Part shown: positions 7,124-63,038 of the stretch, in pieces
Layout of the letters: the number at the start of each line of letters is the position of its first letter
Position numbering within the stretch: the stretch's first letter is position 1
Source of the DNA: a virus
Lineage: Duplodnaviria; Caudoviricetes
Reading direction: 5' to 3' (one strand)
Length of the DNA: 64,000 nt
IMG/VR virus record: IMGVR_UViG_3300036770_008730
Notes under the pieces: generated by a model
What the model saw: the letters and a program-made list of their open reading frames with translations, nothing else
Told to the model about the DNA's origin: nothing
Databases searched by the model: none
Made by a program: the position numbers and the translations under genes

Positions 7124-7585
7124 ATGAAACTAACTAAGATTATTAAACATTATTTGTTGGGTAAATCCGTAAAAGAAATGGAAATGAATAGAATTTTAGA
7201 AAAAATATCAAGCAAAAAGAAGTTAAGTGACAGAGAGAAAAATTTCTTAGAACTTTATCAATCAACTCGTGATGAAGATTTAAAGGATTATGTTTATCTT
7301 TCTAAAAACTCTACTTTTTCTAAAGTAAGTCAATTACTTGAGAATGAAAAGAAGGTTATATGTGATTTGTGTGATAAAAACGGTAAAATTGGTCTACAAA
7401 TTATTTCAATAGAAAATCAATTCGAAACCGAAAAGTGTATTTTAACATTCAAAAACAAAGAAACACATTTCTTACATGATAAGTTTCTTTATAATTTAAT
7501 TTACAATGTTAAAAAAGACGAGTATTCACTTCAAGAGCAAGATGAATATTTCGAAAAAATAACAACCAAAAGTGATGAAGATTAA
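7124..7585 (+). CDS. Hypothetical protein
   Basis: 153-aa ORF immediately after a TAATATATAC motif. Confidence 0.7.
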   Translation: MKLTKIIKHYLLGKSVKEMEMNRILEKISSKKKLSDREKNFLELYQSTRDEDLKDYVYLSKNSTFSKVSQLLENEKKVICDLCDKNGKIGLQIISIENQFETEKCILTFKNKETHFLHDKFLYNLIYNVKKDEYSLQEQDEYFEKITTKSDED

Positions 7586-7898
7586 AAGATTCGGAGAGTT
7601 TAATGAAGCTATTTCTGGAACTGAACTAGTAGGTAATATATCTATGGGTCCTGCTTATGGTGAAACTAGATTGCAGAATAAAACGGTTGGTAAAAGACAT
7701 ACAACTGCTGAATATTCAAAAGATTTGAATAATCCTGATTCTGGTAATACACTTACTAGTGATATTTTCTTTGATGATCAATATTCGGATATCTATAATC
7801 AATATCTTAAGAGTGGTGGTTCACAATCTGAACTTACGGATGATAGAGGTTTAAATATGAAAATTATGATGGATTTTTTACGAACATCCAATAGTTAA
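7575..7898 (+). CDS. Putative head-internal protein (capsid-targeting-like leader)
   Basis: ATG at 7575 gives MKIKRFGEFNE, matching the shared leader. Confidence 0.6.
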   Translation: MKIKRFGEFNEAISGTELVGNISMGPAYGETRLQNKTVGKRHTTAEYSKDLNNPDSGNTLTSDIFFDDQYSDIYNQYLKSGGSQSELTDDRGLNMKIMMDFLRTSNS

Positions 7899-7930
7899 TA
7901 TATACAAATTGATAAAAACAAAAATCAAAA

Positions 7931-29061: not shown

Positions 29062-29070
29062 TAATATATA
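29062..29070 (+). promoter_or_regulatory. Putative late promoter TAATATATA
   Basis: 25 nt upstream of the leader-bearing gene at 29096. Confidence 0.5.
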
Positions 29071-29095: not shown

Positions 29096-30781
29096 ATGCA
29101 AATTAAAAATTTTTCAAATCATTCTAATGAGTATGTTAAGTTGTATGAATCTAAACTATCTCAATGTGAGTTTTTATCAGAACAAAAGATTACTGCGAAT
29201 GACATCATAAATCCTCTTGAAGACCTAATCACTGAAGAGTTCATCAAAAAAATGATTGACAGAATTGGTGACAGTAAGTTTGGTCAAACTGTAAAGAATG
29301 TTGCGTCTACAGTAAAGACTGCAGTAAGTAATTTTTTCAATGGTGTTGTTAATTTCTTTAAAAACTTCTCATTCAAAAAATTGATAGGGGGTATCGTAAA
29401 CAAAATCAAAGAAATAGGATCTAAGGCTTGGCAAAAAGTAAAAGACGCTTTGTCATCTATGAGAGAATTTATTCTTCAAAATAATATGGTCGATCCTGAA
29501 ACAGGAAAGCCAATTTTGAAAAACATATGGTCTGTTCTTTGTACAAAGGCTAAAAGTGTTATCAACATGAAGGACTCTGGTCTTTCTGATGCTGATTTAC
29601 AGAAAGCTGGTGGTCAGATACAATTAAACGAAGCAGCTGATAAATATGATATTGGTGATGATGAGGTGAAGTACTATGGTGTATTTGAAAAAATTTCACA
29701 TGCTTTGGGTATCAAAAATGCGAGATTCAACGGTGTTGTTTCTCAGATTATGAAAAAAGGTACAATTGGTTTAATAATTATTGGTTTGATGAAGGTTGCG
29801 GGTTTAAGTCTTGGAGCCTTAGCAATAGCTAATCCAATAGCTATGGCTGTGATTGGTGGTATGTTATTGATGGCTGGTTTAATAATTTTAGCAATTTGGA
29901 TTTGCAAACCTTATCCTACGGTTGACGATTGTTTAGCTTATTTACATATGTTTTTTGGTAATAATCTTAAAAGCACTGGTATTACTGTTATTTTCAGTCA
30001 GACAAATTATAATATCAATATTGGAATTTCTGGTGGTAAAGAGGAAGATGTTACTACTGAAAAAGATGAAGAACCTATAAAAGATGATGGTGGTGAGGAC
30101 AAAAAAGAGCCTCTTCCTGAAAAATCACTTTACCCATTAATGATTAAAAATCTTAAAGCACTTCAAAGTATGTTAATTTCTTTTGATGGTGTTTCATTAG
30201 AAGGTGATGAACTTGCTAAAGGTAGTCGAGTTAAACAGAAAGAAAAACAAAAGGAAAAAGAAAAGGAAAAGGTAAGAGAAAGTCTAAGAGTTTTATCTTT
30301 TAGTGAATTAATTTTAGAAAAAGAATTTACTAAACAACCAAGAAATGTAAAGATTACAAAAGGTGAAGATTATCTTACCCAAGCTTTCAAAAATATTACT
30401 AAGTCAATTCAGAATATTAAGAATGAAAGTGATAAAGGTATATCTATTACTGATAAGTTTGTTGGTGATATTCTTTCTAAGAAAATGGAAGCTAAAGATG
30501 TTATTAAATCACTTTATGATGATATTTATGAACATTTGTATGGTAAATATGCTTCTACGATGCCTGACTTCGGAGCACTTTATAAAGAAAGTGTAGATGT
30601 TATATCTAAAACGGCTCAAAGAAAAATTGTAGCTGAGAAGATTGCAAGATTAGCTAAGAGAACGATGCAGTTTGAAGGTGAAGGTTTCTATAGTGGTTTA
30701 GGTGAGTTTGGTGCGGATATGGAAGAATTCAACACTACTTTAAAACAAATTATGGATTCTTTGAAAGCAGAAAATAAATAA
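29096..30781 (+). CDS. Putative head-internal protein with hydrophobic hairpin
   Basis: MQIKNFSNHSNE..KLYE leader; long Gly/Ala/Ile hydrophobic stretch (about aa 222-270); internal LRVLSFSELILE. Confidence 0.5.
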   Translation: MQIKNFSNHSNEYVKLYESKLSQCEFLSEQKITANDIINPLEDLITEEFIKKMIDRIGDSKFGQTVKNVASTVKTAVSNFFNGVVNFFKNFSFKKLIGGIVNKIKEIGSKAWQKVKDALSSMREFILQNNMVDPETGKPILKNIWSVLCTKAKSVINMKDSGLSDADLQKAGGQIQLNEAADKYDIGDDEVKYYGVFEKISHALGIKNARFNGVVSQIMKKGTIGLIIIGLMKVAGLSLGALAIANPIAMAVIGGMLLMAGLIILAIWICKPYPTVDDCLAYLHMFFGNNLKSTGITVIFSQTNYNINIGISGGKEEDVTTEKDEEPIKDDGGEDKKEPLPEKSLYPLMIKNLKALQSMLISFDGVSLEGDELAKGSRVKQKEKQKEKEKEKVRESLRVLSFSELILEKEFTKQPRNVKITKGEDYLTQAFKNITKSIQNIKNESDKGISITDKFVGDILSKKMEAKDVIKSLYDDIYEHLYGKYASTMPDFGALYKESVDVISKTAQRKIVAEKIARLAKRTMQFEGEGFYSGLGEFGADMEEFNTTLKQIMDSLKAENK

Positions 30782-30798: not shown

Positions 30799-31419
30799 AT
30801 GAATAACAAAATCAGAAAATTTGACCAATATAATGAAGGACTAGCTGATAGAATCAGAGCAGCTGGAGCAAAAACCAGAAGAATAGTTACTGGTGAGTCT
30901 GCTGGTGAAGAAATTCAGAAATTGAGCCAAGAACAACAAGAAAAAATTGAAAAATTATACTGGGAAAATCCCACCGAGGCTGCGAAATACCTTAGAAGTA
31001 TTATCGTAAAAGAAAAGAACTCTCAATTTGGATTGGGATTAGCTCTTACAATTGCGGGTGCTGGTATGGTCTATAAGGCTTCTAACTTCGAGCCACCAGA
31101 TCCAGATATTCCACCAGAACCTCCGACACCAAATGTTGAAGATTATGTAGTTCAAAAAGGTGACTCTTGGTGGAGAATCGCTCAGGAACATCTACCAGCA
31201 GGTTCTTCAAATAAAGAAATATTAGCATATGCTAAACAATTGGCAGCTGACAATGGTGCTGAAAATCTATATAGTGGTAAGTTTGGTAGCCCTGGTCTTA
31301 AACCTGATACTTGGACAAACATGTCTTCTGGTGATTCAGTTCCAAAATCAGTTATTTCAGCAGCTGATAAATTGACTACAGGTGAAGAAATTATGATAAC
31401 ACCATTCAAAGGAGTATAA
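30799..31419 (+). CDS. LysM-domain protein with capsid-targeting-like leader and TM helix
   Basis: MNNKIRKFDQYNE; GLGLALTIAGAGMVY; Pro-rich linker; YVVQKGDSWWRIA. Confidence 0.75.
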   Translation: MNNKIRKFDQYNEGLADRIRAAGAKTRRIVTGESAGEEIQKLSQEQQEKIEKLYWENPTEAAKYLRSIIVKEKNSQFGLGLALTIAGAGMVYKASNFEPPDPDIPPEPPTPNVEDYVVQKGDSWWRIAQEHLPAGSSNKEILAYAKQLAADNGAENLYSGKFGSPGLKPDTWTNMSSGDSVPKSVISAADKLTTGEEIMITPFKGV

Positions 31420-31500: not shown

Positions 31501-32073
31501 ATGAAAAACCTATTTTTCCTCACACTCATTATTCTTTTAGGTATTTATGTTTTCAAAGATAATACTCAACCACTTTTTGATATTGAGAACAATTCAACTT
31601 TAAATAATTCTAACAAAAGAACAGTTTATCTTTCAGGTTTCAATTCTTTTGATCAAGAATATGTAAAAGGAGCAAAAAAAATTATTGAAGATAATTTTAA
31701 TTTTAATTGTGTTATAAAAAAATCCGTTATTATAGGATACTCTGAGGATAATTTTGATTGTGATTTAGCTCAAACTAAACTTGGTTATAGTCCCTATAAA
31801 CATTGTGACCTTGATGAATCTGTTACTGTATTCATTACAAATGAAAATATACATTCTTTTGGGAAAAAAGTTCGAGGAGTTTGTTATGGAAATCAAATTT
31901 ATGTCGAGCAGTATCATGGTTTCAAAGAGACTATTGTTCATGAATTATGTCATAGCATTGGTATGAGTCATTGTGAAAACGAATGTATAATGAACTCTAA
32001 TTCTAAATGTCGTTGGAATAAGAAATTAAATAAACCAATTTATTGTAAATCTTGTAAATCTAAGTTACCTTAA
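31501..32073 (+). CDS. Secreted/membrane Zn metallopeptidase (archaemetzincin/metzincin-like)
   Basis: Signal/TM MKNLFFLTLIILLG; HELCHSIGMSHC..CIM (HExxHxxGxxH plus Met-turn); C-terminal CxxC. Confidence 0.8.
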   Translation: MKNLFFLTLIILLGIYVFKDNTQPLFDIENNSTLNNSNKRTVYLSGFNSFDQEYVKGAKKIIEDNFNFNCVIKKSVIIGYSEDNFDCDLAQTKLGYSPYKHCDLDESVTVFITNENIHSFGKKVRGVCYGNQIYVEQYHGFKETIVHELCHSIGMSHCENECIMNSNSKCRWNKKLNKPIYCKSCKSKLP

Positions 32074-32719
32074 TTGATTTGAAATCTAAAGTTGGTAAAA
32101 CTTCTTTTATTACCTTAGTTGCTTTTTTGATATATTTTGCTTTATCATCATAAAAGATTGCTTTCTGAAATCCTGTTTCTTTTATAATCTCAACTATCTT
32201 TTCTCCTTTCCAGTGTCCTGCATTTTTTCTACCAACTGGCATCATATGTAGTCCATATTTAGGTAATTCTAATCCTAATGTTTTTAAAGTCTGAGATACT
32301 TTATCTCTCATAGTTTCAACTCTTGCTGTCACAATACACTTCTCTTCTACTGATTTGTATAATTTTACCATTTCGTCTTTAACTGTTGTTGGTAAGCTAA
32401 TATTTGACAAATAAAACTCATTTGGACTTACCATATAGATTCTCTTACCTTTTCTAACCCAATAATCTTGTATCTCTGGTATAGACATTTCTGGATCTTC
32501 GATAAAGATTCTTCCATTTTCCCATTTCAATTCTTGCTGACTTCTCTTAATTTTTTTCAATGATAGGTCTATGATTTCACCTACGGTGAGATCCTCCTTT
32601 AAATATTCGATTGCTAATTCTTCAAAATCCGGACTTTCAACTAAAGTATCATCAAAGTCAAAAATATAGAGAGTGTCTTTATTCTCTACAAATTCAAAAT
32701 ATTTTTTAATCTTTGTCAT
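32060..32719 (-). CDS. HAD-superfamily phosphatase with capsid-targeting-like leader
   Basis: MTKIKKYFEFVE; FDFDDTL (motif I), VTAR (II), K (III), FYDD (IV). Confidence 0.8.
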   Translation of the reverse strand: MTKIKKYFEFVENKDTLYIFDFDDTLVESPDFEELAIEYLKEDLTVGEIIDLSLKKIKRSQQELKWENGRIFIEDPEMSIPEIQDYWVRKGKRIYMVSPNEFYLSNISLPTTVKDEMVKLYKSVEEKCIVTARVETMRDKVSQTLKTLGLELPKYGLHMMPVGRKNAGHWKGEKIVEIIKETGFQKAIFYDDKAKYIKKATKVIKEVLPTLDFKSIKVT

Positions 32720-32888
32720 TGAAAAACTCGTCTATAAGACCACTATAATTTGTTCCAAAGTGTTCTATACACTTATTATATATTTCTTCTTCAAGTTCGA
32801 TTCCTTCTTGAATTAGTCTTTTTACAAAATTTTCAATATCTTCAACTGAGTTGTAGATGTTGAATTCGTCATAGTCGTGAATTAGCAT
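32706..32888 (-). CDS. Small hypothetical protein
   Basis: Probable start MLIHDYDEF at 32888, downstream of AAATATATAA. Confidence 0.55.
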   Translation of the reverse strand: MLIHDYDEFNIYNSVEDIENFVKRLIQEGIELEEEIYNKCIEHFGTNYSGLIDEFFNDKD

Positions 32889-35542: not shown

Positions 35543-36055
35543 TTATTTTTTCTTTTTTGCTTCAATAGCTTTTAATAAAGCTGGTGGTAATTTTTTCTTC
35601 TGTTTATCTGAGGCCTTAGAATCTTTTTCATCTTTTTTACCACCTTTTTTCTTATTCTCTATTGCAGCTGCAATAAAGTCACCTTTTGTGATTTTATTTT
35701 CTGGTGGATATTTTTTTGCTAATTCCTTTTCTTTTTCATTTTTTGGATTTTTTCCTTCTGATTTTTTCTCAAGAAAAGAATTGAATTTTTCAACATATAC
35801 CGGATTTCCCATACTTGGTGTTGAAGGATCATTTTCTGAACCAATTACTTCATCTCCCCAAAAACGGTCTTCTTCCTCCTCATATCCTTCTTCATCTTCA
35901 CCGGTTCCACAAGGTTTACATTCTTCTTCCTTTTCCTCTTCTGGTGTGTTTGGTCTAGTTAAATTTGGAAATCCATTAGGATTTGTTTCTTCTTCACTAA
36001 ATCTACCATAGTCTGGTTGATTGAGGAAATTTTCGAATGCTTTTATGTGTCTCAT
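35543..36055 (-). CDS. Putative head-internal / scaffold-like acidic-basic protein
   Basis: MRHIKAFENFLN leader, acidic middle, Lys-rich tail. Confidence 0.6.
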   Translation of the reverse strand: MRHIKAFENFLNQPDYGRFSEEETNPNGFPNLTRPNTPEEEKEEECKPCGTGEDEEGYEEEEDRFWGDEVIGSENDPSTPSMGNPVYVEKFNSFLEKKSEGKNPKNEKEKELAKKYPPENKITKGDFIAAAIENKKKGGKKDEKDSKASDKQKKKLPPALLKAIEAKKKK

Positions 36056-37230: not shown

Positions 37231-38214
37231 GTGCAAATAAAAAGATATAGTCAGTATTCACTTGAGGAAAGTTTAGTTGATGATTTCTTATCGTCTTTTA
37301 ATGATTTACTTGTTGAATCTAGTGGTTCTGATACTGATGAGTTACAACAACAGATAATATCGAGATTCAAAGAAAGATTTGGAGAAGTAACTCCTTCTAA
37401 TCAAGATTTTGCAGACTTTTATCACGAACTTCGAAACGAAGGTATAGATGGTATACTTATTTTTAACACTTTAGATCCATTTTTAAAAGAACCTGAAGAA
37501 AAGTCAGGAACAGGAACATTAACTGATTCATATAAAAGAGTAGAAAAAAAAGTTCTTTCTGATTTAAGACTTGATACTAAGTTAGCTTTAACATTTGGTG
37601 CAGGTATTGGTGCTATGTATCCTATAGTTTCCAAGTTGATGCAGAATATGAATATAAACTCAATCGAATTAACTACCGAGACGGTTGTCCTTTTGACAAT
37701 TGCTGCTTTAACAATAGTTTATTTAGAGGAAAAGAAAGATATATCAGTTGAAGAAAGAGAAAAACTAACAAAGGATTCTAAGTCAATGTTGGAGGAATTA
37801 AGGATGAGAAGTATAGGTGATGGTATTGTTAAAAAGATTATTAAAGCACTTACTTCGGTCAAAAATATATTCTCACTTATTGGTAAACATATAGGTGCTG
37901 TCATAGGTGGTATAATTGATATGTTTTCATATACGGCTATTCTTATTCCAATTATGAATGCTATTTTATTCTTAATAGGTAAATATGAACTAACACCAGA
38001 TACAATAGTTCAAAACTTCTTTTCACTTGGTATGGGTGTTGCGTCTAAGATAGCTAAACATGGATTGGTAGAATTAATAAGTAAGTTAAAGAATAGATTA
38101 AATATTAATAAAGATAAAGTTTTAGACGAGATAGAAACTCCAGTTATTCAAAGGTTTTCAAATTATATAGATCAAGATCCTAAACAAGATGGTGAATTGA
38201 TTAAGGAGCAATAG
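37231..38214 (+). CDS. Putative head-internal membrane protein
   Basis: GTG start MQIKRYSQYSLEE after TAATATATAC; four hydrophobic segments. Confidence 0.55.
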   Translation: MQIKRYSQYSLEESLVDDFLSSFNDLLVESSGSDTDELQQQIISRFKERFGEVTPSNQDFADFYHELRNEGIDGILIFNTLDPFLKEPEEKSGTGTLTDSYKRVEKKVLSDLRLDTKLALTFGAGIGAMYPIVSKLMQNMNINSIELTTETVVLLTIAALTIVYLEEKKDISVEEREKLTKDSKSMLEELRMRSIGDGIVKKIIKALTSVKNIFSLIGKHIGAVIGGIIDMFSYTAILIPIMNAILFLIGKYELTPDTIVQNFFSLGMGVASKIAKHGLVELISKLKNRLNINKDKVLDEIETPVIQRFSNYIDQDPKQDGELIKEQ

Positions 38215-46196: not shown

Positions 46197-46967
46197 TTAT
46201 CCGTTGTAGTAGTAATTGAAGTCCTCTTCAATATACCATTCGATTGAAGCCTCTACTTCTCCCCAATCTATAGTAAAGGTTTTTGATTCATTATCATATT
46301 CACCAATTCCATAGATGTCATCTTCAGTGACAAATCCAACCATGATTATATCTTCTTGAATATTGTAATCTAAATACTTTTGTAAGTTTATACCAGTGCC
46401 AGTAACAGTTTGTCTTTTGTAATAATCTGTGAGTTGTTTTATACCTCTTTGGAATTCTGGTGTAAATTTTGATTTATTTAAATAATCGGAATATACTTTA
46501 TCTAATTCTTCCTTTTTGATAGTATCTGATTCAAACTGAATATCGAATCTATATTTGATTAGTTCATTTGATACCGTGCTTAAGTAATCGTTCTTTTTGA
46601 GTTTTATTCCTTTTTCAGAAACTCTACTAATCATAGGTTCAATAGAACCAATTATCATTGATAGCTTAGATTGTATTTGTTTGAATTGTTCGAACGTTCC
46701 GTTTTTTTCGGATAAGAATTGAATTGATATGCCATATTCAATTTTATATTGTTTATCTTTTTCTAAATCTACATTAATAATGTGTCCTCTTTCATCAACA
46801 ATATGACAACTTTTTGTGATTTCGAAATCTTTGTCATCTATTATATCCCATAAACTATCTTCAAATTCTGACCAATCTAAAGATTTAGACTTAATAAAAT
46901 CGTTTAATTCTCTGGATATACCAAATGATTCATTAATAAAAAAGTTTTCAAATCTTTTAATTTTCAT
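46197..46967 (-). CDS. Putative head-internal protein
   Basis: MKIKRFENFFINE leader directly after TAATATATAC (46971-46980). Confidence 0.6.
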   Translation of the reverse strand: MKIKRFENFFINESFGISRELNDFIKSKSLDWSEFEDSLWDIIDDKDFEITKSCHIVDERGHIINVDLEKDKQYKIEYGISIQFLSEKNGTFEQFKQIQSKLSMIIGSIEPMISRVSEKGIKLKKNDYLSTVSNELIKYRFDIQFESDTIKKEELDKVYSDYLNKSKFTPEFQRGIKQLTDYYKRQTVTGTGINLQKYLDYNIQEDIIMVGFVTEDDIYGIGEYDNESKTFTIDWGEVEASIEWYIEEDFNYYYNG

Positions 46968-46982
46968 AGAGTATATATTAAA

Positions 46983-52243: not shown

Positions 52244-52261
52244 AAAAATTATATATAGTTT

Positions 52262-54577: not shown

Positions 54578-55255
54578 TTAATTTATTTTCTCAAACCACC
54601 AATTGAAATAAATATAGTTATCTCCTACAAGATTACAATAATCTTCTCCTATTTTGATAATTAGTTTGTCAGAGTGTGATCTTACCAATTCTATTTCGAT
54701 TCCTTTTGTTATTTTGTGCATTTTTCCAGTTTCTACAGAATAACAAACTACTTCATCGTTTATTAATTTATAAATTCCTGGTTCTGGTTTTAACCATTGT
54801 TTAATGGTTTTGATTATGAGTCCTTTTATTTTTACAACCCATTCCTTTGCTTGATATAATTCATGGTCTTTGAATACCTCAGATTTTAATTCTGGTGAGT
54901 TCATTATATTCTTTACTACTCCGAAATACTCTGTATCTGAAATAATGAAACTTATATAGACATCGTAATTAATGTTATTTGATTTTATAATTCTTAGAAC
55001 TTTTAAATTTTTAATATCTTGTTCTTCTAATGCTATTTTACTTCTTAATTTGCTATATGCAGAAGTTCCTTTAAGATTATAAAGGATATCATTTATTCTG
55101 GACATAGCAGCTCTTATCTTATCCTGGTGCTTATCAAATGCATCTATTGATAATTTTGGATCATCTACATGTACTGATGCCCTTGCTGAGTCTGGATTTA
55201 ATCTTTGAAGATTGAATTCAGTAAATTCTAGAATTAATCTATTCTTCTGTTTCAT
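54578..55255 (-). CDS. Hypothetical protein, possible head-internal
   Basis: MKQKNRLILEFTEFNL weak leader match; TATATA cluster upstream. Confidence 0.55.
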   Translation of the reverse strand: MKQKNRLILEFTEFNLQRLNPDSARASVHVDDPKLSIDAFDKHQDKIRAAMSRINDILYNLKGTSAYSKLRSKIALEEQDIKNLKVLRIIKSNNINYDVYISFIISDTEYFGVVKNIMNSPELKSEVFKDHELYQAKEWVVKIKGLIIKTIKQWLKPEPGIYKLINDEVVCYSVETGKMHKITKGIEIELVRSHSDKLIIKIGEDYCNLVGDNYIYFNWWFEKIN

Positions 55256-55291
55256 ATATAAATATATATATTAAAATCATAAATTAGTATT

Positions 55292-55624
55292 ATGAAAATT
55301 AAAAGATTTAATGAATCCGAAGAAGTAACAATTAGTAATAAATCTGTTCAAGATTTAGTAAAAAGATTAGGTGAGTTTTCATCTCAGATTTCTGAAAACT
55401 TAAAAATGGTAGAGTCATTACATAATGAACTTAATAATTATAAATCACTTTCAACAAAATCAAATAATCAGATAGATGATTCAATCTCATTGTCTCAGTT
55501 GCTACAAACTTCTATAAATGATTGCAAAGACTACGCTGATAAAATTATTGAAAATCTTAACTCTTATACTCAAGAGGGAAGTCAATATCTATATACTAAA
55601 AGTAAAAAAACATCTGAAGAATGA
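55292..55624 (+). CDS. Putative head-internal coiled-coil protein
   Basis: MKIKRFNESEE leader. Confidence 0.6.
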   Translation: MKIKRFNESEEVTISNKSVQDLVKRLGEFSSQISENLKMVESLHNELNNYKSLSTKSNNQIDDSISLSQLLQTSINDCKDYADKIIENLNSYTQEGSQYLYTKSKKTSEE

Positions 55625-56891: not shown

Positions 56892-57464
56892 TTATTTATT
56901 GTATTTTAATTTATAAAGTGTTTTGTATATTAAAGCAACCGCCTCATCAACAATATTTAATAAATGACTGTCTTCAGCTTTAATACATTTCTTTTCCGTT
57001 TTTACAAATTCAACTAATTCTTCAAAATAAGCAATCTTATCTTTTGAGCTAGTTTCTTTTGTATCTATTACTTCATATCCTTCTACTATACCATATTGTC
57101 CCTGATATACTTCAATCATCTCATCGATAAAACCTAATATACCATCGTAGTATTCACCTAAAGCTGTGTGTGCTGCATGAGAACCTGGTTCACCTTTAAC
57201 AGTTAGATGATAGATATGTGCCATTTCTCTACTCTCAAAAAGTTTAGAGAAGAATTTTACTACATCCCCACCAGAAGAAGTTGTTTCTTTTTTCTCAGTC
57301 TCTTTTTCTTCTGACTCTTCTTTCTTTTGTTCTTTATTACCAGACATCAACTTTATAAGCTCTTCTTTTGACATATCTTCATAGTTTGAAGGTAAATTTG
57401 GTTTAGCCTCATCTTGTTCGTTGATTCTTCTGTATTTTTTCTGAATATCTGAAAATCTTTTCAT
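56892..57464 (-). CDS. DUF5856-like ferritin-fold protein with leader
   Basis: MKRFSDI..RINE; HIYHL..SHAAHTALGEYYDGI..DEMIEVYQG..TLYKL. Confidence 0.65.
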   Translation of the reverse strand: MKRFSDIQKKYRRINEQDEAKPNLPSNYEDMSKEELIKLMSGNKEQKKEESEEKETEKKETTSSGGDVVKFFSKLFESREMAHIYHLTVKGEPGSHAAHTALGEYYDGILGFIDEMIEVYQGQYGIVEGYEVIDTKETSSKDKIAYFEELVEFVKTEKKCIKAEDSHLLNIVDEAVALIYKTLYKLKYNK

Positions 57465-57483
57465 TTATAATGATTATTTTTTT

Positions 57484-57690
57484 TTATATATTAAAATCTT
57501 TTGTTGAATTTTCTTCTTCAACTTTACTTATTGATAAATCAGTAACTCCTTCTATTTTTTTGAATGTATCATCTGCAATAAATGAAGCTTCTCCTTCATT
57601 TGCTGCTGTGATTTCAACTTCAACCACCATTTGAACTTTAAACTTTTTCTGTTCAACTGTATTTTCCAATATTTTAGAGAATTTCTTCAT
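57484..57690 (-). CDS. Small putative head-internal protein
   Basis: MKKFSKILE leader. Confidence 0.55.
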   Translation of the reverse strand: MKKFSKILENTVEQKKFKVQMVVEVEITAANEGEASFIADDTFKKIEGVTDLSISKVEEENSTKDFNI

Positions 57691-58801
57691 CTTGTAAAAG
57701 TGCTGCTTTTATTTTTCCTATTTTTTGTTTTAGATATCTTCCATTCTTGTTGAATTGTTTTCCCCAATATTTGATAAAATCTAAACAACTCATTTTTTCA
57801 AATGTTGCCAAAGGAATGATTGGTTCTGCTTTCTGTGATGTAATTTCTTTTTTGTAGACCGCAATCCACATATCTTTAAGTTTATCTGCTATTTTATGGG
57901 AATTATCACAATCAGCAAATAAAAAATTACTGAATTTACTGAAATCATGATTATCGATTTCAGAAATCAAAGACATATAATATACCTCAGCGTCAAATTT
58001 TTCCATATATGTAGCCGTTTGCCAAATATCAAATGACTCAAGTTCCGCTTCTGGATACTTATGTAAATAATAAAACATCTCTTGAACAATAGCGTTCAAT
58101 TCAAAAGATTCGCTTATATAGATGTAATGAAGAAATGAACTTGTCCAATTTGCCCAAACCGGTTTTGGAAATTTCCATATGTTATTTTCAGCATAAGTAA
58201 GTGATGTATTGAAAGATCTATCATAGATTGGTTTTCGATATTCACCCCTTCTTGTTCCTTTTATAGTTCTTTTGTAATGTTCGAATGAGTGATTTAATTC
58301 GTGAAAAATTACAGAACCTATGCCATCTTCAAGTCTTTTTGAGTGACTCGGATTTTGTAAATCAAAGGTCACTTTATCAATTTCTATTTCTATTCCTATT
58401 TGAATTATCAAACCTATATCAGATAGTTTTTTTATAGGGTTGACTATTTTGGAATAATTTTTCCAATTTTTATGACCGAATCCCGATGCTGAACCACCTA
58501 CAACAATTGATTTATCTCCATATTTATTTTTGAATAAAGCAGTTCTCATCTTTTTGAATTCAAGAACAATTTCAAATGCAACTACTGGAAAATCCACATA
58601 AGCTGCCCAATCCGTTATATACGGTCTCAACTTTCTATAACTTATTTTTACTGTTTCATTGAAAGTCAATCCATCTGAATCAATAAATTTAAGAAATTCT
58701 TGTTTTGTTCTTAGGCTGATAGGCTCGTGTAAAAGCAAACTAGCCTTTGACACTCCTACTTTTTCATTTATTGAAAATTCTTCAAATCGGTATATCTTCA
58801 T
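57674..58801 (-). CDS. Putative HExxH zinc metalloprotease with capsid-targeting-like leader
   Basis: MKIYRFEEFSINE; IFHELNHSFEH followed by ESFELNA (gluzincin-like third ligand). Confidence 0.6.
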   Translation of the reverse strand: MKIYRFEEFSINEKVGVSKASLLLHEPISLRTKQEFLKFIDSDGLTFNETVKISYRKLRPYITDWAAYVDFPVVAFEIVLEFKKMRTALFKNKYGDKSIVVGGSASGFGHKNWKNYSKIVNPIKKLSDIGLIIQIGIEIEIDKVTFDLQNPSHSKRLEDGIGSVIFHELNHSFEHYKRTIKGTRRGEYRKPIYDRSFNTSLTYAENNIWKFPKPVWANWTSSFLHYIYISESFELNAIVQEMFYYLHKYPEAELESFDIWQTATYMEKFDAEVYYMSLISEIDNHDFSKFSNFLFADCDNSHKIADKLKDMWIAVYKKEITSQKAEPIIPLATFEKMSCLDFIKYWGKQFNKNGRYLKQKIGKIKAALLQDEEIL

Positions 58802-58886
58802 CTGAGTATATATTAATATTTTTTTCTAAGAATAAAAAGTAGTATTTGTAATTTAATATATAATTCAACAAAAAATAAATTTTATT

Positions 58887-59246
58887 ATGGTTTATATTAA
58901 AAAATATAAAAGATTTGTTGAAGAGTTTGTGATGGCTGGGTCTCCAAGACCTGGAACAATTGAGACCCCGGTTGAAACACCTGTTACTCCGGCACTCCCA
59001 ATACCTACTGAGATTCCTGATGAACAAGATAATCCTTTAGCTTCAACTAAAACTGCTCCAAGGCCTGGAACAATTGAGACTCCGGTTGAAACACCTGTTA
59101 CTCCCGCACTTCCTATACCGACAGAAATTCCGGATGAACAAGATAATCCGTTAGCTTCTGCAGAAGATGTTATAAATAGGTTATCATCTATTTATTCCAA
59201 AGAAGATAAAAAAGGTAAATCAGAAATCGATTCTTATTTCTATTAA
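58887..59246 (+). CDS. Pro/Thr/Glu-rich repeat protein with leader
   Basis: MVYIKKYKRFVEE; two PRPGTIETPVETPVTPALPIPTEIPDEQDNPLAS copies. Confidence 0.65.
   Translation: MVYIKKYKRFVEEFVMAGSPRPGTIETPVETPVTPALPIPTEIPDEQDNPLASTKTAPRPGTIETPVETPVTPALPIPTEIPDEQDNPLASAEDVINRLSSIYSKEDKKGKSEIDSYFY
58944..59159. repeat. Direct repeat, 114-bp period, x~1.9
   Basis: Copies begin at 58944 and 59058; 34 aa identical, differences only at synonymous positions. Confidence 0.9.
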
Positions 59247-59264
59247 AAAATATAAGCTATAAAT

Positions 59265-60992
59265 ATGAAGTCATTCGATAAATTTCTAAAAGAAGAAGTA
59301 GATTTAAGAGGTAGTAAAGGCATTCCATCAGATTTTATGTCAAAAGCTGAACAAGAAGCTAGATTAAAAAAGGGTGTAAGACCTGACGATGAATCTCAAA
59401 TGAGAAACATTTTACCAAGATTTCAATCTTTAATGGGTGAATCTGGTAGGCTGATGGGAATGAAAAATGGTCAAAGATTGACACCTCAACAAATGGAACA
59501 AAGATCCGCTAAATTAGAGGAATTAGCAAAAAAGGTGATTTTAGAAGAGTTTGGAGATATACTAGCCGAATCATCTGTTCCTGTAGAATTAGATATAAAA
59601 TTAGTTAGAATGGGTGGAGTTGCTCAACAACTTCCTAACATTAGACAAGTTCCAAGAGCTCCTCAACCACCTCAACAGCCTCAACCACCTCAACAACCCG
59701 AGGAATGTGAGGATTGTCAACCTGGACAACAACCACAACAACAAGCTGGTGAGGATTTATCAGCAGCAATTGATAAGAAGAAGATTCTGAATATGATTGC
59801 TCAAGGTGCTGGTAAGAAAACAAAAGATATTATTAGATACTCTGAAACAGTAGAAGAAGGTTTGTCAGAAATATTTGAAAACGATGCAACAACTATTCTT
59901 AATTGTTGGGTTGGCCTTTCTGAAGAAGCTGATAAAATGGACTGGGTTATACCAATTGCATCAAAGGCAGGTATGATGTCAAGTGCTCCTGGTGGAATGG
60001 CTGGTGCTTGTGAGGTTGTTTGGGAAAGTTTGTCTGGTGAGATATATGCTTTCAAACTTATTTTAGAAAAACAAGCAACAAAAGTGATTATCAAAGCTGT
60101 TGGTGTGGATTTTCCTATGTTAATTCATGAGGCAGTTAAAGGTGTTTATACATTTTTACAATCAGTTTCAATTAAAAAAGGAGAAGCTGCAAAATCTGTG
60201 AAAAAAGCAACTTCATCATTTACTGATGAGGCTCAAGACTTTAGATATGGACCACCAGCATTGCAGATGTTAATAGATTTTACTAATAAGTTTCCAGAAT
60301 CGACAAATTACAAACAATTTCAAGCTAAGATTTATAAGTTTTTAGCACACGATAAAGAAAGACATAAAGAACAGTTGAAAAATATTGAAGAAATGGCCGA
60401 GAAGATGGAAGGCGCTCAAAAGGAACAATATAAAGAACTAATCAAAAGGATGAAGAAAAGAGTTGAATTGTATAAGACAGATGCTCAATTCTTAGAAATT
60501 ATGAAAAGTTTATTTTCTACTTTTGATCAAGTTGGTGGTGAGTTCACATTGAATGAAGATAAGTTCAACGAATCTCATGCTAAAAAAGAAATAAAAGAAA
60601 TAGTTGAATTTATTGTTAAAGAAGATGAATATTTGGCTGGTAGAGCTGCTGAATATGAAAGATATAAAAAGGAACAAGAAGAAAGATCTAAGATGTCTAA
60701 AAGAGAAGAAGAGGAAGCAGAATCTGAAATGGATAAACTAATTAAACAATCTCTTTCACGTGAGACAGAAAAGACAGAAGAGAAAGATTTTGAAAAAATG
60801 TCTGATTCTGAATTATCAAAACTTTCACAATCTGAAATACAATTAGCTATTGATAAAGCAGTCGAAGAGGAAAATTATGAGTTTGCTGATAAATTGACTA
60901 AGAAGTTCCTAAAAGGTGAAGCTAAGATAGTATGGGAAAAAGAACTTCAGAGAATTAACGAAATGTATAAATTACACACAAGAAGAAAATAA
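59265..60992 (+). CDS. Large putative head-internal protein with C-terminal UVR-like helix pair
   Basis: MKSFDKFLKEE leader; Gln/Pro-rich linker; AIDKAVEEENYEFADKL. Confidence 0.55.
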   Translation: MKSFDKFLKEEVDLRGSKGIPSDFMSKAEQEARLKKGVRPDDESQMRNILPRFQSLMGESGRLMGMKNGQRLTPQQMEQRSAKLEELAKKVILEEFGDILAESSVPVELDIKLVRMGGVAQQLPNIRQVPRAPQPPQQPQPPQQPEECEDCQPGQQPQQQAGEDLSAAIDKKKILNMIAQGAGKKTKDIIRYSETVEEGLSEIFENDATTILNCWVGLSEEADKMDWVIPIASKAGMMSSAPGGMAGACEVVWESLSGEIYAFKLILEKQATKVIIKAVGVDFPMLIHEAVKGVYTFLQSVSIKKGEAAKSVKKATSSFTDEAQDFRYGPPALQMLIDFTNKFPESTNYKQFQAKIYKFLAHDKERHKEQLKNIEEMAEKMEGAQKEQYKELIKRMKKRVELYKTDAQFLEIMKSLFSTFDQVGGEFTLNEDKFNESHAKKEIKEIVEFIVKEDEYLAGRAAEYERYKKEQEERSKMSKREEEEAESEMDKLIKQSLSRETEKTEEKDFEKMSDSELSKLSQSEIQLAIDKAVEEENYEFADKLTKKFLKGEAKIVWEKELQRINEMYKLHTRRK

Positions 60993-61001
60993 ACTACTAA
61001 A

Positions 61002-63038
61002 ATGAAATTATTCAAATATAATCAGTTTTTAGGACTAAATTCAATTAATGAGAATGTTGCGAAAGCAAAATCTTATCTTAAAGAATTCTACTTGACAGAA
61101 AAGGCTGCAAGAGAATTAGGTTTTATAACCGAAGATATGGATTATGAAAAGAAAGAAGGTGAAAGAAGAGTTTTTCTTATGAAAGACTTTACATCTGAAC
61201 AACAACAACAAATCAAAAATAAAATTAAAGGAAGAGGTGAATTCGAAGGAAAAGCTTTAAGAGTTTCTGATGAAGAAATTCGTAAGATAGAACAAAGTGA
61301 AGAATTTAAATCTGTAAGAGAACTAAAAGCTGAAATTAAAGATGCTGAAGGAAAAGTAACAAAAACCTATCAATTGGATAGAGATAATGCTGGTTGGGTT
61401 TCTCATTTTACTTATTTCTACTACGCTGAGAATAGCTCACTTGAAGCACTTACCAGTATTTATGAACGATTAATTCAATATAAAGATTTATTAGATAAGT
61501 TACCTAAAAAGTTTGATAATAACTTCATTGATGAGTCAATACCTAATGAGGATCATACCCATACGAATGCTGAAGATTTATCTGATGAGTTAGATAAATT
61601 GGTTAAATATAAACAACTTTCTAAAATAAAAGAAAGACTTTTACCACATCTTAAAAGAGATTTAGAAAAAGCATCTGAATTACAGATGAAAGATATGTTT
61701 GAAATTGCTGCCGGATTTGACGAATTTGAGCCAGAAGAAAAAAGAGAAACTATTTGGAAAAACTTCTTTGGTGAAATGGCTGAAGATAGACAACCAACTC
61801 TACCTAATGGTTCTCCTAATCCTAATTTTGGTAAGGTAAGATATATGAGTAGATTAGGTTTAATTAAAGACTTGAATGATTTTATTAAATCGGCAAAAGC
61901 ACATTTAGCTGGTTCTACCAGTGATGGATATAGTGAAAGAATCGATAAGATTAACAAAACAAATGATAGATTCGGGGTTAAAGGTGCAAAAGTGGTATTT
62001 AATGAAAATGGAATTATGGTGGTTAGAGTTTATTCTTATGCTGCAAATAACTTCTTAAATAACTATTGCAGTCATTGTATTGTTAATCGTGGTGAAAATT
62101 ATTGGGATAGTTATGTTGGTGATATGAACGCTCAATATTATCTTTATAACTTTAATTTACCTTCTACCAACCCAAGATGGACTATAGGTGTTTCAATAAA
62201 ACCTGAAAGAACTTATCAAAGTGGTGCTTGTCAAGACATCAGAAATAACTATATTGGTGGTGAATTCAAAACAATGTTAAAACAATGGGAAAAAGAATAT
62301 GAAATTGAAACTGACATTTACAATCAAATTCTTAACCCTCTTACAAGAGAAGAATTAGATAAGATGCAAAGACAAAAATTGGCAGATAGAGAGATTGTTA
62401 AGAAGGGTATTACTATTCAACAAATCAAGCAATTTGTAACCGAGGATGGTGCTAATATCAATAAAGATAACGGTAAAGCCTTATTAAATGCAATAGAAGA
62501 GGATGATGTTGAAAAAATAAAATATATTTTAGATTTAGGAGCTTCTCCAACCTTAGGAACTCCAATGGCTAAGGCTAAAAGCTTAAAAGTTATTCAATTA
62601 CTTGTTGAAGCTGGTGCTCCAGTTGTGAATCAGGTTTTTGATAGTTGTTTTGGTGACTTAGATGCCTTAGAATACTTATTCAAAGCAGGACTTGATCCAA
62701 ATCTTGAACAGCAAAAACCATTTAGAAAAGCTATCAAAGGAACTTGGAGAGATTCCAAAAATCCAGGAGATCCATATTTTGAACAATTCAAAATGATTTT
62801 GAAATATGGTGGTAAAACCCAAGATGATCGTGGTAGAAATACTGTATTAAAATGGTGTGCTGAGTATGGTAGATTTGAAATACTTGACTACATGGATAAA
62901 AATGGTATTAGTAATAAATTCACTGCTGCTGAATATAAAGACTCTTTAACTTGGATAACACACGGTGTTAAAATACCTCAAGATGATTGGGAAAAAATGA
63001 AAGAATATTTAAGTTCAAAGATTGCAGAAAAATCTTAA
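61002..63038 (+). CDS. Ankyrin-repeat protein with capsid-targeting-like leader
   Basis: MKLFKYNQFLGLNSINE; GANIN..ALLNAIEEDDVEKIKYILDLGA, KVIQLLVEAGA, ALEYLFKAG repeats. Confidence 0.7.
   Translation: MKLFKYNQFLGLNSINENVAKAKSYLKEFYLTEKAARELGFITEDMDYEKKEGERRVFLMKDFTSEQQQQIKNKIKGRGEFEGKALRVSDEEIRKIEQSEEFKSVRELKAEIKDAEGKVTKTYQLDRDNAGWVSHFTYFYYAENSSLEALTSIYERLIQYKDLLDKLPKKFDNNFIDESIPNEDHTHTNAEDLSDELDKLVKYKQLSKIKERLLPHLKRDLEKASELQMKDMFEIAAGFDEFEPEEKRETIWKNFFGEMAEDRQPTLPNGSPNPNFGKVRYMSRLGLIKDLNDFIKSAKAHLAGSTSDGYSERIDKINKTNDRFGVKGAKVVFNENGIMVVRVYSYAANNFLNNYCSHCIVNRGENYWDSYVGDMNAQYYLYNFNLPSTNPRWTIGVSIKPERTYQSGACQDIRNNYIGGEFKTMLKQWEKEYEIETDIYNQILNPLTREELDKMQRQKLADREIVKKGITIQQIKQFVTEDGANINKDNGKALLNAIEEDDVEKIKYILDLGASPTLGTPMAKAKSLKVIQLLVEAGAPVVNQVFDSCFGDLDALEYLFKAGLDPNLEQQKPFRKAIKGTWRDSKNPGDPYFEQFKMILKYGGKTQDDRGRNTVLKWCAEYGRFEILDYMDKNGISNKFTAAEYKDSLTWITHGVKIPQDDWEKMKEYLSSKIAEKS

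What the first reader, a model, noticed from the sequence alone, without database searches (positions are those of the whole stretch)
7575..63038. About 17 unrelated proteins share an N-terminal capsid-targeting / prohead-protease-like leader
Seen: MKIKRFGEFNE (7575), MQIKNFSNHSNE (29096), MNNKIRKFDQYNE (30799), MTKIKKYFEFVE (32719), MKYLNKYEMFNE (35538), MRHIKAFENFLN (36055), MRLLRFLDFILE (36130), MQIKRYSQYSLEE (37231), MKIKRFENFFINE (46967), MKQKNRLILEFTEF (55255, weak), MKIKRFNE (55292), MKRFSDI..INE (57464), MKKFSKILE (57690), MKIYRFEEFSINE (58801), MVYIKKYKRFVEE (58887), MKSFDKFLKEE (59265), MKLFKYNQF..SINE (61002). The bodies are unrelated. Nearly all of these genes follow the TAATATATA motif or lie in its operons, and none of the replication genes carry the leader. 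Known: T4 internal proteins use a roughly 10-aa signal (MKTYQEFIAE) cleaved after I/L-x-E by gp21. Inference: a large packaged and injected proteome that can be read directly from sequence.
Basis: partly seen in the sequence, partly recalled or inferred. Interest (0 to 1): 0.75.

Follow-up and report, generated by a model that had tools for sequence, protein, structure and literature searches.

The report
T4-like head-address tag, huge phage
In this piece of an uncultivated huge phage, about 14 unrelated proteins (plus 3 doubtful ones) start with the same 10-13-residue peptide, which closely matches the tag phage T4 uses to load proteins into its head and then cut off, so these phages probably pack a very large protein cargo, though no experiment has shown it.

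Summary
Of the 17 listed N-termini, 13 score 9.3-16 bits and one (36130) 7.2 bits with a model trained only on non-orthologous genes of a related phage. Internal-Met control peptides almost never reach these scores. Three are weak (55255, 57464, 57690). The bodies share no BLASTP similarity. Synonymous codon use in the leader equals that of gene bodies, so selection acts on the peptide. Orthologs keep the tag, including 119 of 119 homologs of the HAD-like protein.

A model built without T4 sequences ranks T4 IPIII, IPII and IPI 2nd to 4th of 302 T4 ORFs. The invariant aromatic pair (i, i+3) and the terminal hydrophobic-x-Glu match the T4 residues reported to drive targeting (4, 7) and processing (8, 10). 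Relatives carry a T4-type head module with a gp21-family protease fused to a scaffold. That scaffold is full of [LIV]-N-E-[SN] and Y-[LI]-A-E sites, the same motif that ends the leaders. Tagged genes share the TAATATATA promoter motif with head genes.

Best reading (0.55): a T4-type capsid-targeting propeptide expanded to roughly 4-18% of called ORFs. Packaging, cleavage and injection are all untested. This scan had already found the tag in neighbouring windows of the same genome. I found no published description.

The parts
7575..7898 (+). Tagged gene, 107 aa, leader MKIKRFGEFNE|A. Second gene behind the TAATATATA copy at 7110.
   Evidence: 13.8 bits with the independent model. No Pfam or PHROG hit.
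29096..30781 (+). Tagged gene, 561 aa, leader MQIKNFSNHSNE|Y. Hydrophobic hairpin at residues 222-276.
   Evidence: 10.2 bits. TAATATATA lies 25 nt upstream. Hydropathy scan.
30799..31419 (+). Tagged gene, 206 aa, leader MNNKIRKFDQYNE|G, with a LysM domain at residues 116-152.
   Evidence: 9.4 bits, aligned from residue 5. PF01476 LysM at E 1.6e-5.
32060..32719 (-). Tagged gene, 219 aa, leader MTKIKKYFEFVE|N placed directly in front of a HAD-type DxDxT strand (YIFDFDDT).
   Evidence: 16.0 bits. 119 of 119 database homologs carry the leader in front of DxDxT.
32706..32888 (-).
   Evidence: 8.4 bits. The start codon is uncertain.
34699..35538 (-). Tagged gene, 279 aa, leader MKYLNKYEMFNE|A.
   Evidence: 10.4 bits. 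The ATG is 5 nt after the stop of the upstream tagged gene.
35543..36055 (-). Tagged gene, 170 aa, leader MRHIKAFENFLN followed by an acidic linker.
   Evidence: 12.5 bits. TAATATATA lies 24 nt upstream. The G001 ortholog starts MKHIKRFENFSFEEEE.
36130..37104 (+). Tagged gene, 324 aa, leader MRLLRFLDFILE|A (moderate match).
   Evidence: 7.2 bits; 1 of 344 controls reaches this. TAATATATA lies 6 nt upstream. The G001 ortholog starts MINKYNNFLLNES.
37231..38214 (+). Tagged gene, 327 aa, GTG start, leader (M)QIKRYSQYSLEE|S. Two hydrophobic segments.
   Evidence: 9.3 bits. TAATATATA lies 5 nt upstream. The ortholog starts MKITKFQQYSLQDS. Hydropathy scan.
46197..46967 (-). Tagged gene, 256 aa, canonical leader MKIKRFENFFINE|S.
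   Evidence: 12.9 bits. TAATATATA lies 4 nt upstream.
54578..55255 (-). Weak member, 225 aa, starting MKQKNRLILEFTEF.
   Evidence: 5.4 bits, off register. The G001 ortholog has a clearer leader, MDKLKILKFSQFTKVFE. TAATATATA lies 9 nt upstream.
55292..55624 (+). Tagged gene, 110 aa, short leader MKIKRFNE|S.
   Evidence: 12.3 bits. The ortholog starts MKIRRFFESEE.
56892..57464 (-). Weak member, 190 aa, starting MKRFSDIQKKYRRINE|Q. DUF5856 / phrog_858, a homolog of T4 rI.-1.
   Evidence: 3.9 bits. PF19174 at E 7.8e-14. phrog_858 at E 2.2e-17. The N-terminus may be a feature of this protein family rather than the tag.
57484..57690 (-). Weak member, 68 aa, starting MKKFSKILE|N.
   Evidence: 3.0 bits. 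Lies in the operon behind 58801.
57674..58801 (-). Tagged gene, 375 aa, canonical leader MKIYRFEEFSINE|K. HELNH motif at residue 167.
   Evidence: 12.9 bits. TAATATATA lies 5 nt upstream. HExxH found. Only viral proteins of unknown function as relatives.
58887..59246 (+). Tagged gene, 119 aa, leader MVYIKKYKRFVEE|F followed by a Pro/Thr-rich linker.
   Evidence: 13.4 bits. TAATATATA lies 24 nt upstream. The ortholog starts MGFIKKYKMFTEE.
59265..60992 (+). Tagged gene, 575 aa, short-form leader MKSFDKFLKE|E.
   Evidence: 12.4 bits. The ortholog starts MKKFSDFIKEE.
61002..63038 (+). Tagged gene, 678 aa, leader MKLFKYNQFLGLNSINE|N. Weak, sub-threshold ankyrin-repeat matches in the C-terminal part.
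   Evidence: 12.8 bits. PF12796 at E 1.4e-5 but 26.0 bits, below its curated cut-off of 27.3; no ankyrin family passes its cut-off. The ortholog starts MKLFKYNQFLGEDTLNE.
29062..29070 (+). One of 9 TAATATATA promoter-like copies directly upstream of tagged genes. The others are at 36080-36088 (-), 36115-36123 (+), 37217-37225 (+), 46972-46980 (-), 55265-55273 (-), 57485-57493 (-), 58807-58815 (-) and 58854-58862 (+).
   Evidence: 18 copies against 3.7 expected. Enrichment upstream of tagged genes p=0.0014. In relatives the same motif precedes the portal gene (G001), the protease-scaffold gene (LR745206; G001 has only a near variant) and the gene after the capsid gene (G001).

Best explanation
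The shared N-terminus is a portable protein-level address tag of the T4 'capsid targeting sequence' type. A short basic start (M-K-x-I-K-K/R) is followed by two aromatic residues three positions apart. I infer that these dock the newly made protein onto the scaffolding core of the assembling prohead. The tag ends in hydrophobic-x-Glu, most often [FIL]-N-E followed by S, A or E. I infer that the phage's gp21-family prohead protease cuts there, which frees the mature protein inside the head so that it leaves with the DNA at infection.

Shown by sequence analysis here:
- the tag is real and confined to N-termini;
- selection acts on the peptide;
- it is conserved in orthologs and across four Mahaphage genomes;
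- it matches the T4 tag at the residues reported to matter for function;
- relatives encode a T4-type portal, capsid protein and protease;
- the same Glu motif fills the scaffold;
- tagged genes are enriched for a promoter motif also found upstream of the portal and protease-scaffold genes.

Inferred and not shown: binding to the core, cleavage, presence in virions and injection.
For: 1. Blind T4 test. A profile trained only on huge-phage leaders ranks IPIII, IPII and IPI 2nd to 4th of 302 T4 ORFs. The chance of one event at rank 4 or better is about 0.013.
2. Key residues. According to PMC9026906, T4 CTS targeting depends on residues 4 and 7 (Tyr, Phe) and processing on residues 8 and 10 (Ile, Glu). 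The huge-phage leader has an invariant [FY]-x-x-F and an invariant Glu. The LR756500 consensus MKYIKEYEEF[IL]NE[AS] reads like T4 MKTYQEFIAEA.
3. Leader end. A hydrophobic-x-E within residues 7-20 occurs in 42 of 46 tagged proteins. The stricter hydrophobic-[NK]-E-[SANEG] occurs in 22 of 46 tagged against 4 of 170 untagged proteins. T4 gp21 cuts after L/I-x-E (PMC9026906).
4. T4-type head module in relative G001. Portal PF07230 scores 200 bits and capsid protein PF07068 102 bits. A profile of the protease domain hits PDB 5JBL (T4 gp21) at E 4.3e-7. The invariant His72 and Ser127/128 align with the positions where the 5JBL chain has Ala; from memory, 5JBL is the His/Ser-to-Ala catalytic mutant.
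5. Scaffold. The protease-scaffold protein has about 13 Y-S-E-Y-[LI]-A-E-N repeats. It has 7 [LIVMFYK]NE[SN] sites, about 16 times the proteome density. In 129 homologs the motif is 7 times more frequent than in shuffles, and 118 sites lie at the domain junction. Glu168 of that site is invariant.
6. The capsid protein carries a conserved S-I-N-E-N in its N-terminal region.
7. Promoter. TAATATATA precedes 9 of 17 tagged and 6 of 49 untagged genes here (p=0.0014). In LR745206 the figures are 31 of 79 and 79 of 777 (p=3e-10). The exact motif precedes the portal gene in G001 and the protease-scaffold gene in LR745206; the capsid gene has only a TATATATAG-like variant.
8. Peptide-level selection. 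Synonymous codon use in the leader equals that of gene bodies, all p>0.1.
9. Portability. The bodies are unrelated. The tag sits directly in front of known folds: the HAD DxDxT strand and an NFACT-R domain next to the capsid gene.
Against: There is no experimental evidence for any phage of this clade.

The scale is far beyond T4's handful of CTS proteins. In LR745206 79-115 genes are tagged, and in this window a fifth of the genes.

Tagged bodies are acidic, with median pI 4.95 against 6.42 (p=3e-6). From memory, T4 IPII and IPIII are basic DNA-associated proteins.

Some tagged proteins have membrane-spanning hairpins or are large (575-678 aa).

The head module was seen in relatives, not in this window.

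Only about half of the leaders have the strict [NK]-E-[SANEG] ending.

The similarity to T4 is a short motif, and the three T4 internal proteins are not independent of each other.
Confidence: 0.55

Rival explanations
1. The peptide is a real protein-level tag, but for another shared partner. Candidates are a phage chaperone or hub, a compartment in the infected cell, or recognition by the protease for activation without packaging. On this reading the tagged proteins are not virion cargo.
For: The number of tagged proteins (79-115 in LR745206), their acidity and the membrane segments in some fit an intracellular sorting or activation tag as well as they fit packaging. Nothing tested here measures location.
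Against: The residues that match T4 are the ones T4 uses for head targeting. The terminal motif is shared with the scaffold and capsid protein. Tagged genes share the promoter motif found upstream of the portal and protease-scaffold genes.
Confidence: 0.27
2. The conservation lies in the mRNA. It would be a translation-start element for transcripts that begin at or just before the ATG, since TAATATATA often lies only 4-7 nt upstream. The peptide would then be a by-product.
For: The spacing between motif and ATG is bimodal, with a 4-7 nt class. The hosts are probably Bacteroidota, which make little use of Shine-Dalgarno sequences (general knowledge).
Against: Synonymous codon use in leader codons 2-14 does not differ from gene bodies for any of 11 amino acids. 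Substitutions are conservative at the amino-acid level (K/R, F/Y, I/L). Genes with the same 5-6 nt spacing (7124, 10570) have no leader, and about half of the tagged genes have no motif directly upstream. The motif's register relative to Met varies by 0-2 residues.
Confidence: 0.05
3. The leader is a passively spread promoter-plus-first-codons cassette, or the remnant of one ancestral gene family. It would have no function of its own.
For: Tagged genes cluster (seven in a row at 56892-63038) and often follow the same promoter motif. From memory, mobile promoter cassettes are known in T4-type phages.
Against: There is no body similarity. The pattern persists in orthologs at 40-55% identity, in 119 of 119 homologs of one family, and in genomes whose capsid proteins are only 36% identical. 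Neutral sequence would have decayed over that distance. Leaders also occur on operon-internal genes without the promoter.
Confidence: 0.05
4. The pattern is chance or a composition effect of a 29% G+C genome, where Lys, Ile, Phe, Asn and Glu codons are common.
For: The leader is made of AT-rich codons.
Against: 0-0.2% of internal-Met peptides and none of 178 spurious-ORF N-termini reach 10 bits, against 18% of true N-termini. None of the ORFs sampled from Lak-B5 or PTm1, at similar G+C, reach it.
Confidence: 0.01

Closest known systems
Capsid targeting sequence (CTS) of phage T4 internal proteins IPI, IPII and IPIII (Mullaney & Black 1996, as reviewed in PMC9026906 and PMC3012670)
   Same: Both are 10-19-residue N-terminal peptides on otherwise unrelated proteins. 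Both have aromatic residues three apart and end in I/L-x-Glu. A T4-type gp21 protease is present. The huge-phage profile picks the three T4 internal proteins out of 302 ORFs at ranks 2-4.
   Different: The tag is about three residues longer at the basic start (M-K-x-I-K-K/R). Position P2 is mostly Asn rather than Ala. It sits on roughly 80-115 genes per genome rather than a handful. The bodies are mostly acidic, often large, and some have membrane segments. The protease is fused to the scaffold. Nothing has been tested experimentally.
Variable internal-protein genes of T-even phages (CTS-like leaders on diverse basic proteins in T2, T4D and T6; PMC9026906)
   Same: A conserved leader sits on rapidly changing, unrelated bodies, read as an arms-race cargo set.
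   Different: Those are a few genes at one or two loci. Here tagged genes are spread over the whole 0.6-Mb genome.
Processed head and ejection proteins of phiKZ-like giant phages (201phi2-1, phiKZ, SPN3US; PMC9026906, PMC5694885, PMC10052503)
   Same: These are large capsids with about 50 or more head proteins, many cut after Glu by a gp21-related protease and ejected into the host.
   Different: Their cleavage motif is S/A-x-E, and I found no mention of a common N-terminal consensus in the text I read. Here P3 is F, I, L or Y, and the tag itself is conserved.
T4 gp21 prohead protease and gp22 scaffold
   Same: The Gly-Glu-Leu-Asp/Asn-His-Pro and Ser-Ser-Arg motifs are conserved, and the profile matches PDB 5JBL at E 4.3e-7. 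The scaffold is cut-site-rich like gp22.
   Different: Protease and scaffold are one 630-850-residue polypeptide with a 14-residue repeat array.

Membership tests
T4-type capsid targeting sequence (CTS) | Located at the extreme N-terminus, about 10-19 residues long | tested here: met
   Hits are almost exclusively at start Met residues. The Glu lies at residue 7-18, mostly 8-13.
T4-type capsid targeting sequence (CTS) | Aromatic/hydrophobic targeting residues equivalent to T4 CTS positions 4 and 7 | tested here: met
   An aromatic [FY]-x-x-[FY] pair is kept in 12 of the 13 aligned leaders; the second position is Phe in 12 of 13, nearly invariant. T4 positions taken from PMC9026906.
T4-type capsid targeting sequence (CTS) | Ends in a gp21 site, L/I-x-Glu | tested here: met
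   42 of 46 tagged proteins have hydrophobic-x-E. P3 is F 18, I 10, L 8, Y 5, V 1. P3 is often Phe or Tyr rather than Leu or Ile, so the rule is met in a relaxed form.
T4-type capsid targeting sequence (CTS) | Carried by proteins with unrelated mature parts | tested here: met
   No BLASTP pair at E<1e-3 among the window's tagged bodies.
T4-type capsid targeting sequence (CTS) | Detectable sequence likeness to the T4 CTS | tested here: met
   IPIII scores 8.2 bits, IPII 7.6 and IPI 7.6, ranks 2-4 of 302 T4 ORFs.
T4-type capsid targeting sequence (CTS) | The genome encodes a gp21-family prohead protease and a gp23-type capsid protein | tested here: met
   Met in relatives G001, LR745206, LR756504, LR756501 and LR756500. 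The head module is not inside this window, and no whole genome is held for it.
T4-type capsid targeting sequence (CTS) | The tag is sufficient for incorporation into proheads and is removed by the protease | not testable with these tools
   Needs virion proteomics, N-terminomics or a fusion-packaging assay.
T4-type head maturation module (gp20, gp21, gp22, gp23) | Separate protease (gp21) and scaffold (gp22) genes | tested here: not met
   Protease domain and repeat-rich scaffold form one ORF of 632-807 aa in all five relatives. Most of the 150 listed homologs are 500-900 aa.
phiKZ-type head protein propeptides | Cleavage motif S/A/G-x-Glu | tested here: not met
   P3 is F, I, L, Y or V in all 42 scored leaders.
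Sec/Tat/lipoprotein signal peptides | Hydrophobic core of 8 or more residues after a basic N-region | tested here: not met
   The leaders have no hydrophobic stretch, and acidic or polar residues follow the aromatic pair. The hydropathy scan finds no N-terminal segment.

The most novel reading that the evidence does not exclude
Mahaphage-clade huge phages use one ancient, T4-related 10-13-residue address tag to load on the order of a hundred different proteins into the capsid and deliver them with the DNA. The cargo would include enzymes, weakly ankyrin-like, LysM and membrane-inserting proteins. The whole injected proteome of an uncultivated phage could then be read from its sequence, and the tag could be reused to package foreign proteins.
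Probability: 0.4. Interest if true: 0.85.

Novelty: new variant of a known kind. Interest (0 to 1): 0.68.

Why it matters
Huge phages carry hundreds of genes of unknown role. If this tag marks head cargo, it sorts roughly a tenth of each genome into one class: proteins that act at the moment of infection. That gives direct candidates for anti-defence and host-takeover factors in phages that cannot yet be grown.

It would also show that the T4 internal-protein system is an old, scalable delivery device rather than a T-even curiosity. The short tag could be tried in T4-based protein-packaging vectors.

The link found here between the end of the tag and the cut-site-rich protease-scaffold fusion gives a simple biochemical test: recombinant protease domain plus leader peptides.

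Tried and rejected
- Complex prediction, protease-domain alignment A1 with leader alignment A2: no verdict (score 0.01, below the mark). It counts neither for nor against.
- Megablast of 10 kb of the window against the phage collection: no match. The window's own genome is not in that collection, and no whole genome is held.
- Cultured relative Tenacibaculum phage PTm1, whose published virion data might have helped: no leader in its first 50 kb, and its paper is not in the library.
- Idea that the 'basic and aromatic N-terminal extensions' of huge-phage ribosomal protein S21 noted by Al-Shayeb et al. (PMC7162821) are this tag: the S21 genes of three relatives are 64-67 aa with no extension. 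Dropped.
- G001 portal N-terminus (MASYNNFNQEN, 13.9 bits): not conserved in four relatives. I treat it as a false positive of the profile. The same applies to an internal Met of RNR beta.
- Pfam, PHROGs and Atlas searches on the tagged bodies gave few names: LysM, DUF5856/phrog_858, sub-threshold ankyrin matches and a weak HAD/polynucleotide-kinase-like hit.
- Orthologs are only slightly more identical in the leader than elsewhere: 49% in the leader, 39% in the next 30 residues, 42% in the rest. Exact identity is therefore not the signal; the pattern is.
- Literature: none of the 21 papers that use the phrase 'capsid targeting sequence' concerns huge phages by its title or abstract. Al-Shayeb et al. 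2020 contains none of the terms 'internal protein', 'prohead', 'injected' or 'packaged'.
Full report
WHAT THE WINDOW IS

The window has 29-33% G+C and is densely coded. It encodes a DNA polymerase, a DnaB-type helicase, a Ro60/TROVE protein and thymidylate synthase. It also encodes an Fpg glycosylase, an ABC transporter, a DNA methylase, a second helicase, several glycosyltransferases and two ribonucleotide reductase subunits.

No whole genome is held for it, and 10 kb of it has no megablast match in the phage collection. A syntenic relative exists in IMG/VR: G001, 150 kb, estimated 25% complete. The capsid protein of G001 is 71% identical to those of the 635-642-kb genomes LR745206 and LR756502. 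It is 50-52% identical to LR756504 and to the 735-kb LR756501, 36% to LR756500, about 30% to the Lak phages and 29% to Tenacibaculum phage PTm1.

These LR genomes are the 'Mahaphage' clade of Al-Shayeb et al. 2020, predicted to infect Bacteroidetes (PMC7162821).

THE OBSERVATION

All 17 starts exist as listed. Fourteen of them align as M, 0-2 residues, then [KRQ]-[IL]-[KR]-[KR]-[FY]-x-[EQN]-[FY], 0-8 residues, and hydrophobic-x-Glu. In a 13-sequence alignment Met1 and the Glu are invariant, and the second aromatic residue is Phe in 12 of 13, nearly invariant.

To avoid circularity I trained a profile on the window and tested it on G001. At 6 bits or more it hits 23 of 160 N-termini and 3 of 688 internal-Met peptides.

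I then did the reverse, using a profile built only from 32 G001 N-termini that are not orthologs of window genes:
- Thirteen of the 17 claimed starts score 9.3-16 bits.
- 36130 scores 7.2 bits.
- 55255, 57464 and 57690 are weak at 5.4, 3.9 and 3.0 bits.
- The best of 344 window control peptides scores 8.1 and the next 3.9.

With the pooled profile, 18% of 226 true N-termini reach 10 bits. Only 0.1% of 1032 internal-Met peptides and none of 178 spurious-ORF N-termini do so. Equally AT-rich phages do not show the tag: 0 of 55 ORFs in Lak-B5 and 0 of 58 in PTm1.

The bodies have no BLASTP similarity to one another. None of the replication or nucleotide-metabolism genes carries the leader.

PEPTIDE OR RNA?

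Synonymous codon use in leader codons 2-14 is indistinguishable from gene bodies for all 11 amino acids tested. Substitutions are conservative at the protein level. Genes with the same promoter spacing can lack the leader, and half of the tagged genes have no promoter motif directly upstream. Selection is therefore on the peptide.

CONSERVATION

Ten ortholog pairs between the window and G001 keep the pattern. All 119 database homologs of the HAD-like protein 32060-32719, at about 62-93% identity, carry it immediately before the catalytic DxDxT strand.

A complete relative, LR745206, has 79 called ORFs at 10 bits or more (8.4%) and 115 at 8 bits or more. None of 2769 controls reaches 10 bits. 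The tag is also present in LR756504, LR756501 and the distant LR756500, at 3.9-5.5% of called ORFs at 10 bits. These are under-estimates, because the profile was trained on one sub-lineage.

COMPARISON WITH T4

I fetched the T4 genome and scored all 302 called ORFs with the huge-phage profile. IPIII, IPII and IPI rank 2nd, 3rd and 4th. First is gp61.1, which starts MKTFKEFIKED.

According to PMC9026906, the first 10 residues of IPIII suffice for head incorporation. Targeting depends mainly on residues 4 and 7, and processing on residues 8 and 10. In MKTYQEFIAE these are Tyr, Phe, Ile and Glu. They correspond to the aromatic pair and the hydrophobic-x-Glu of the huge-phage leader. The LR756500 consensus MKYIKEYEEF[IL]NE[AS] differs from T4 mainly by three extra residues near the start. 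T4 gp21 cuts after L/I-x-E.

THE HEAD MODULE AND THE CUT SITE

G001 encodes a T4-type portal (PF07230, 200 bits) and a gp23-type capsid protein (PF07068, 102 bits). Between them lies a 732-residue protein.

Its first ~170 residues form a very large family: 2,909 cluster representatives at E≤0.001, and most of the 150 best hits listed are 500-900 residues long. A 34-sequence profile of this domain matches PDB 5JBL, the T4 gp21 protease, at E 4.3e-7. The invariant His72 and Ser127/128 align with the positions where the 5JBL chain has Ala; from memory, 5JBL is the His/Ser-to-Ala catalytic mutant.

The rest of the protein is scaffold-like:
- about 13 copies of a 14-residue repeat containing Y-[LI]-A-E-N;
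- an acidic stretch;
- a C-terminal part with L-N-E-S, I-N-E-S and K-N-E-S.

[LIVMFYK]-N-E-[SN] occurs 7 times in this protein, about 16 times the proteome density. In 129 full-length homologs the motif is 7 times more frequent than in composition-preserving shuffles. Of these sites, 118 fall at residues 150-200, the junction after the protease domain, and the Glu there is invariant. The residue before N-E is mostly L, I or V, and the residue after is mostly S or N.

The capsid proteins of the clade share S-I-N-E-N or a close variant in the N-terminal region.

The same motif ends the leaders. Hydrophobic-[NK]-E-[SANEG] occurs in residues 5-22 of 22 of 46 tagged proteins against 4 of 170 untagged ones. 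In LR745206, 37 of the 101 [LIVMFYK]NE[SN] sites in the whole proteome lie in the first 20 residues, against 9.6 expected.

This ties the end of the tag to the probable specificity of the prohead protease. It is inference, not a demonstrated cleavage.

EXPRESSION CLASS

TAATATATA is over-represented, with 18 copies against 3.7 expected. It lies upstream of 9 of 17 tagged and 6 of 49 untagged genes (p=0.0014). In LR745206 the figures are 31 of 79 and 79 of 777 (p=3e-10).

The exact motif precedes the portal gene and the gene after the capsid gene in G001, and the protease-scaffold gene in LR745206. G001's protease-scaffold gene and the capsid genes of both relatives have only near variants (TAAATATATA, TATATATAG). 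It also precedes the three large paralogous proteins at 49071-54502 here. It is therefore probably the late/structural promoter class (T4's late promoter is TATAAATA, from memory). This would place tagged genes in the same expression class as head genes.

WHAT THE TAGGED PROTEINS ARE

Most have no known family. The exceptions are:
- a LysM protein (30799);
- a HAD-like protein (32719);
- a DUF5856/phrog_858 protein homologous to T4 rI.-1 (57464);
- an HExxH protein (58801);
- a protein with weak, sub-threshold ankyrin-repeat matches (61002);
- two proteins with hydrophobic hairpins or segments (29096, 37231).

Tagged bodies are more acidic than untagged ones, with median pI 4.95 against 6.42 (p=3e-6). 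In this they differ from the T4 internal proteins IPII and IPIII, which are basic (from memory).

VERDICT

The best explanation is a T4-type capsid-targeting propeptide removed by a gp21-family protease, expanded to roughly 4-18% of called ORFs (confidence 0.55). The main rival is a protein-level tag for some other shared partner or for processing only (0.27). RNA-level, passive-cassette and chance explanations are unlikely.

The tag works like, and is probably homologous to, the T4 CTS. It differs in consensus, in scale, in cargo type and in the fused protease-scaffold. I therefore class it as a new variant of a known kind.

This scan had already reported the same tag in neighbouring windows of this genome. 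My tests were made independently. They add the protease-scaffold cut-site link, the codon test, the 119-homolog family and the four-genome survey. I found no published description.

Noticed in passing
L015:18966-19130 (T4 gene 61.1, minus strand): T4 gp61.1 starts MKTFKEFIKED and is the top T4 hit of the huge-phage leader profile (10.1 bits), above IPIII, IPII and IPI. It may be an unrecognised CTS-bearing T4 protein.
   Followed up: no
window 56892-57464 (-); T4 rI.-1 at NC_000866 58819-59205: The window protein (DUF5856, phrog_858 at E 2e-17) is a homolog of T4 rI.-1. The T4 protein's N-terminus, MKFSDFSQ, ranked 5th in the T4 scan. The MK(x)FSD start may be a feature of this family rather than the general tag.
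   Followed up: partly
LR745206 genome-wide (L027-L058); window 7110, 10555, 36115, 37217, 46972, 58807: The distance from the end of TAATATATA to the ATG is bimodal: 4-7 nt for 17 tagged genes and 19-27 nt for 13. The short class would give leaderless or nearly leaderless mRNAs.
   Followed up: partly
L006:14242-16440 (P0001) and homologs in L019-L022: The prohead protease is fused to a scaffold with about 13 copies of a 14-residue repeat (N-I-x-Y-S-E-Y-[LI]-A-E-N-L-D-K) and an acidic stretch. The family has 2,909 cluster representatives at E≤0.001 in the 1.84-billion-protein library.
   Followed up: partly
window 49071-54502 (+): Three consecutive large proteins (559, 497 and 746 aa). The first two start MPGTFSLNIG and MATFSLNIG. 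They lie behind a TAATATATA copy, are conserved in G001 and have no PHROG or Pfam match. They are probably virion proteins.
   Followed up: no
window 11102-17963: A cluster of at least five glycosyltransferase genes (GT2, GT4, galactosyltransferase-like and a 929-aa protein with a glucosyltransferase PHROG). None carries the leader.
   Followed up: no
L006:18339-18731 (G001): A leader-tagged 130-aa NFACT-R (PF05670) protein lies immediately downstream of the capsid gene, with TAATATATA 4 nt before its ATG.
   Followed up: no
window and G001, all tagged genes: Tagged proteins are markedly acidic (median pI 4.95 against 6.42). Several have Pro/Thr- or Glu-rich low-complexity linkers right after the leader, for example 58887 and 36055.
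   Followed up: partly
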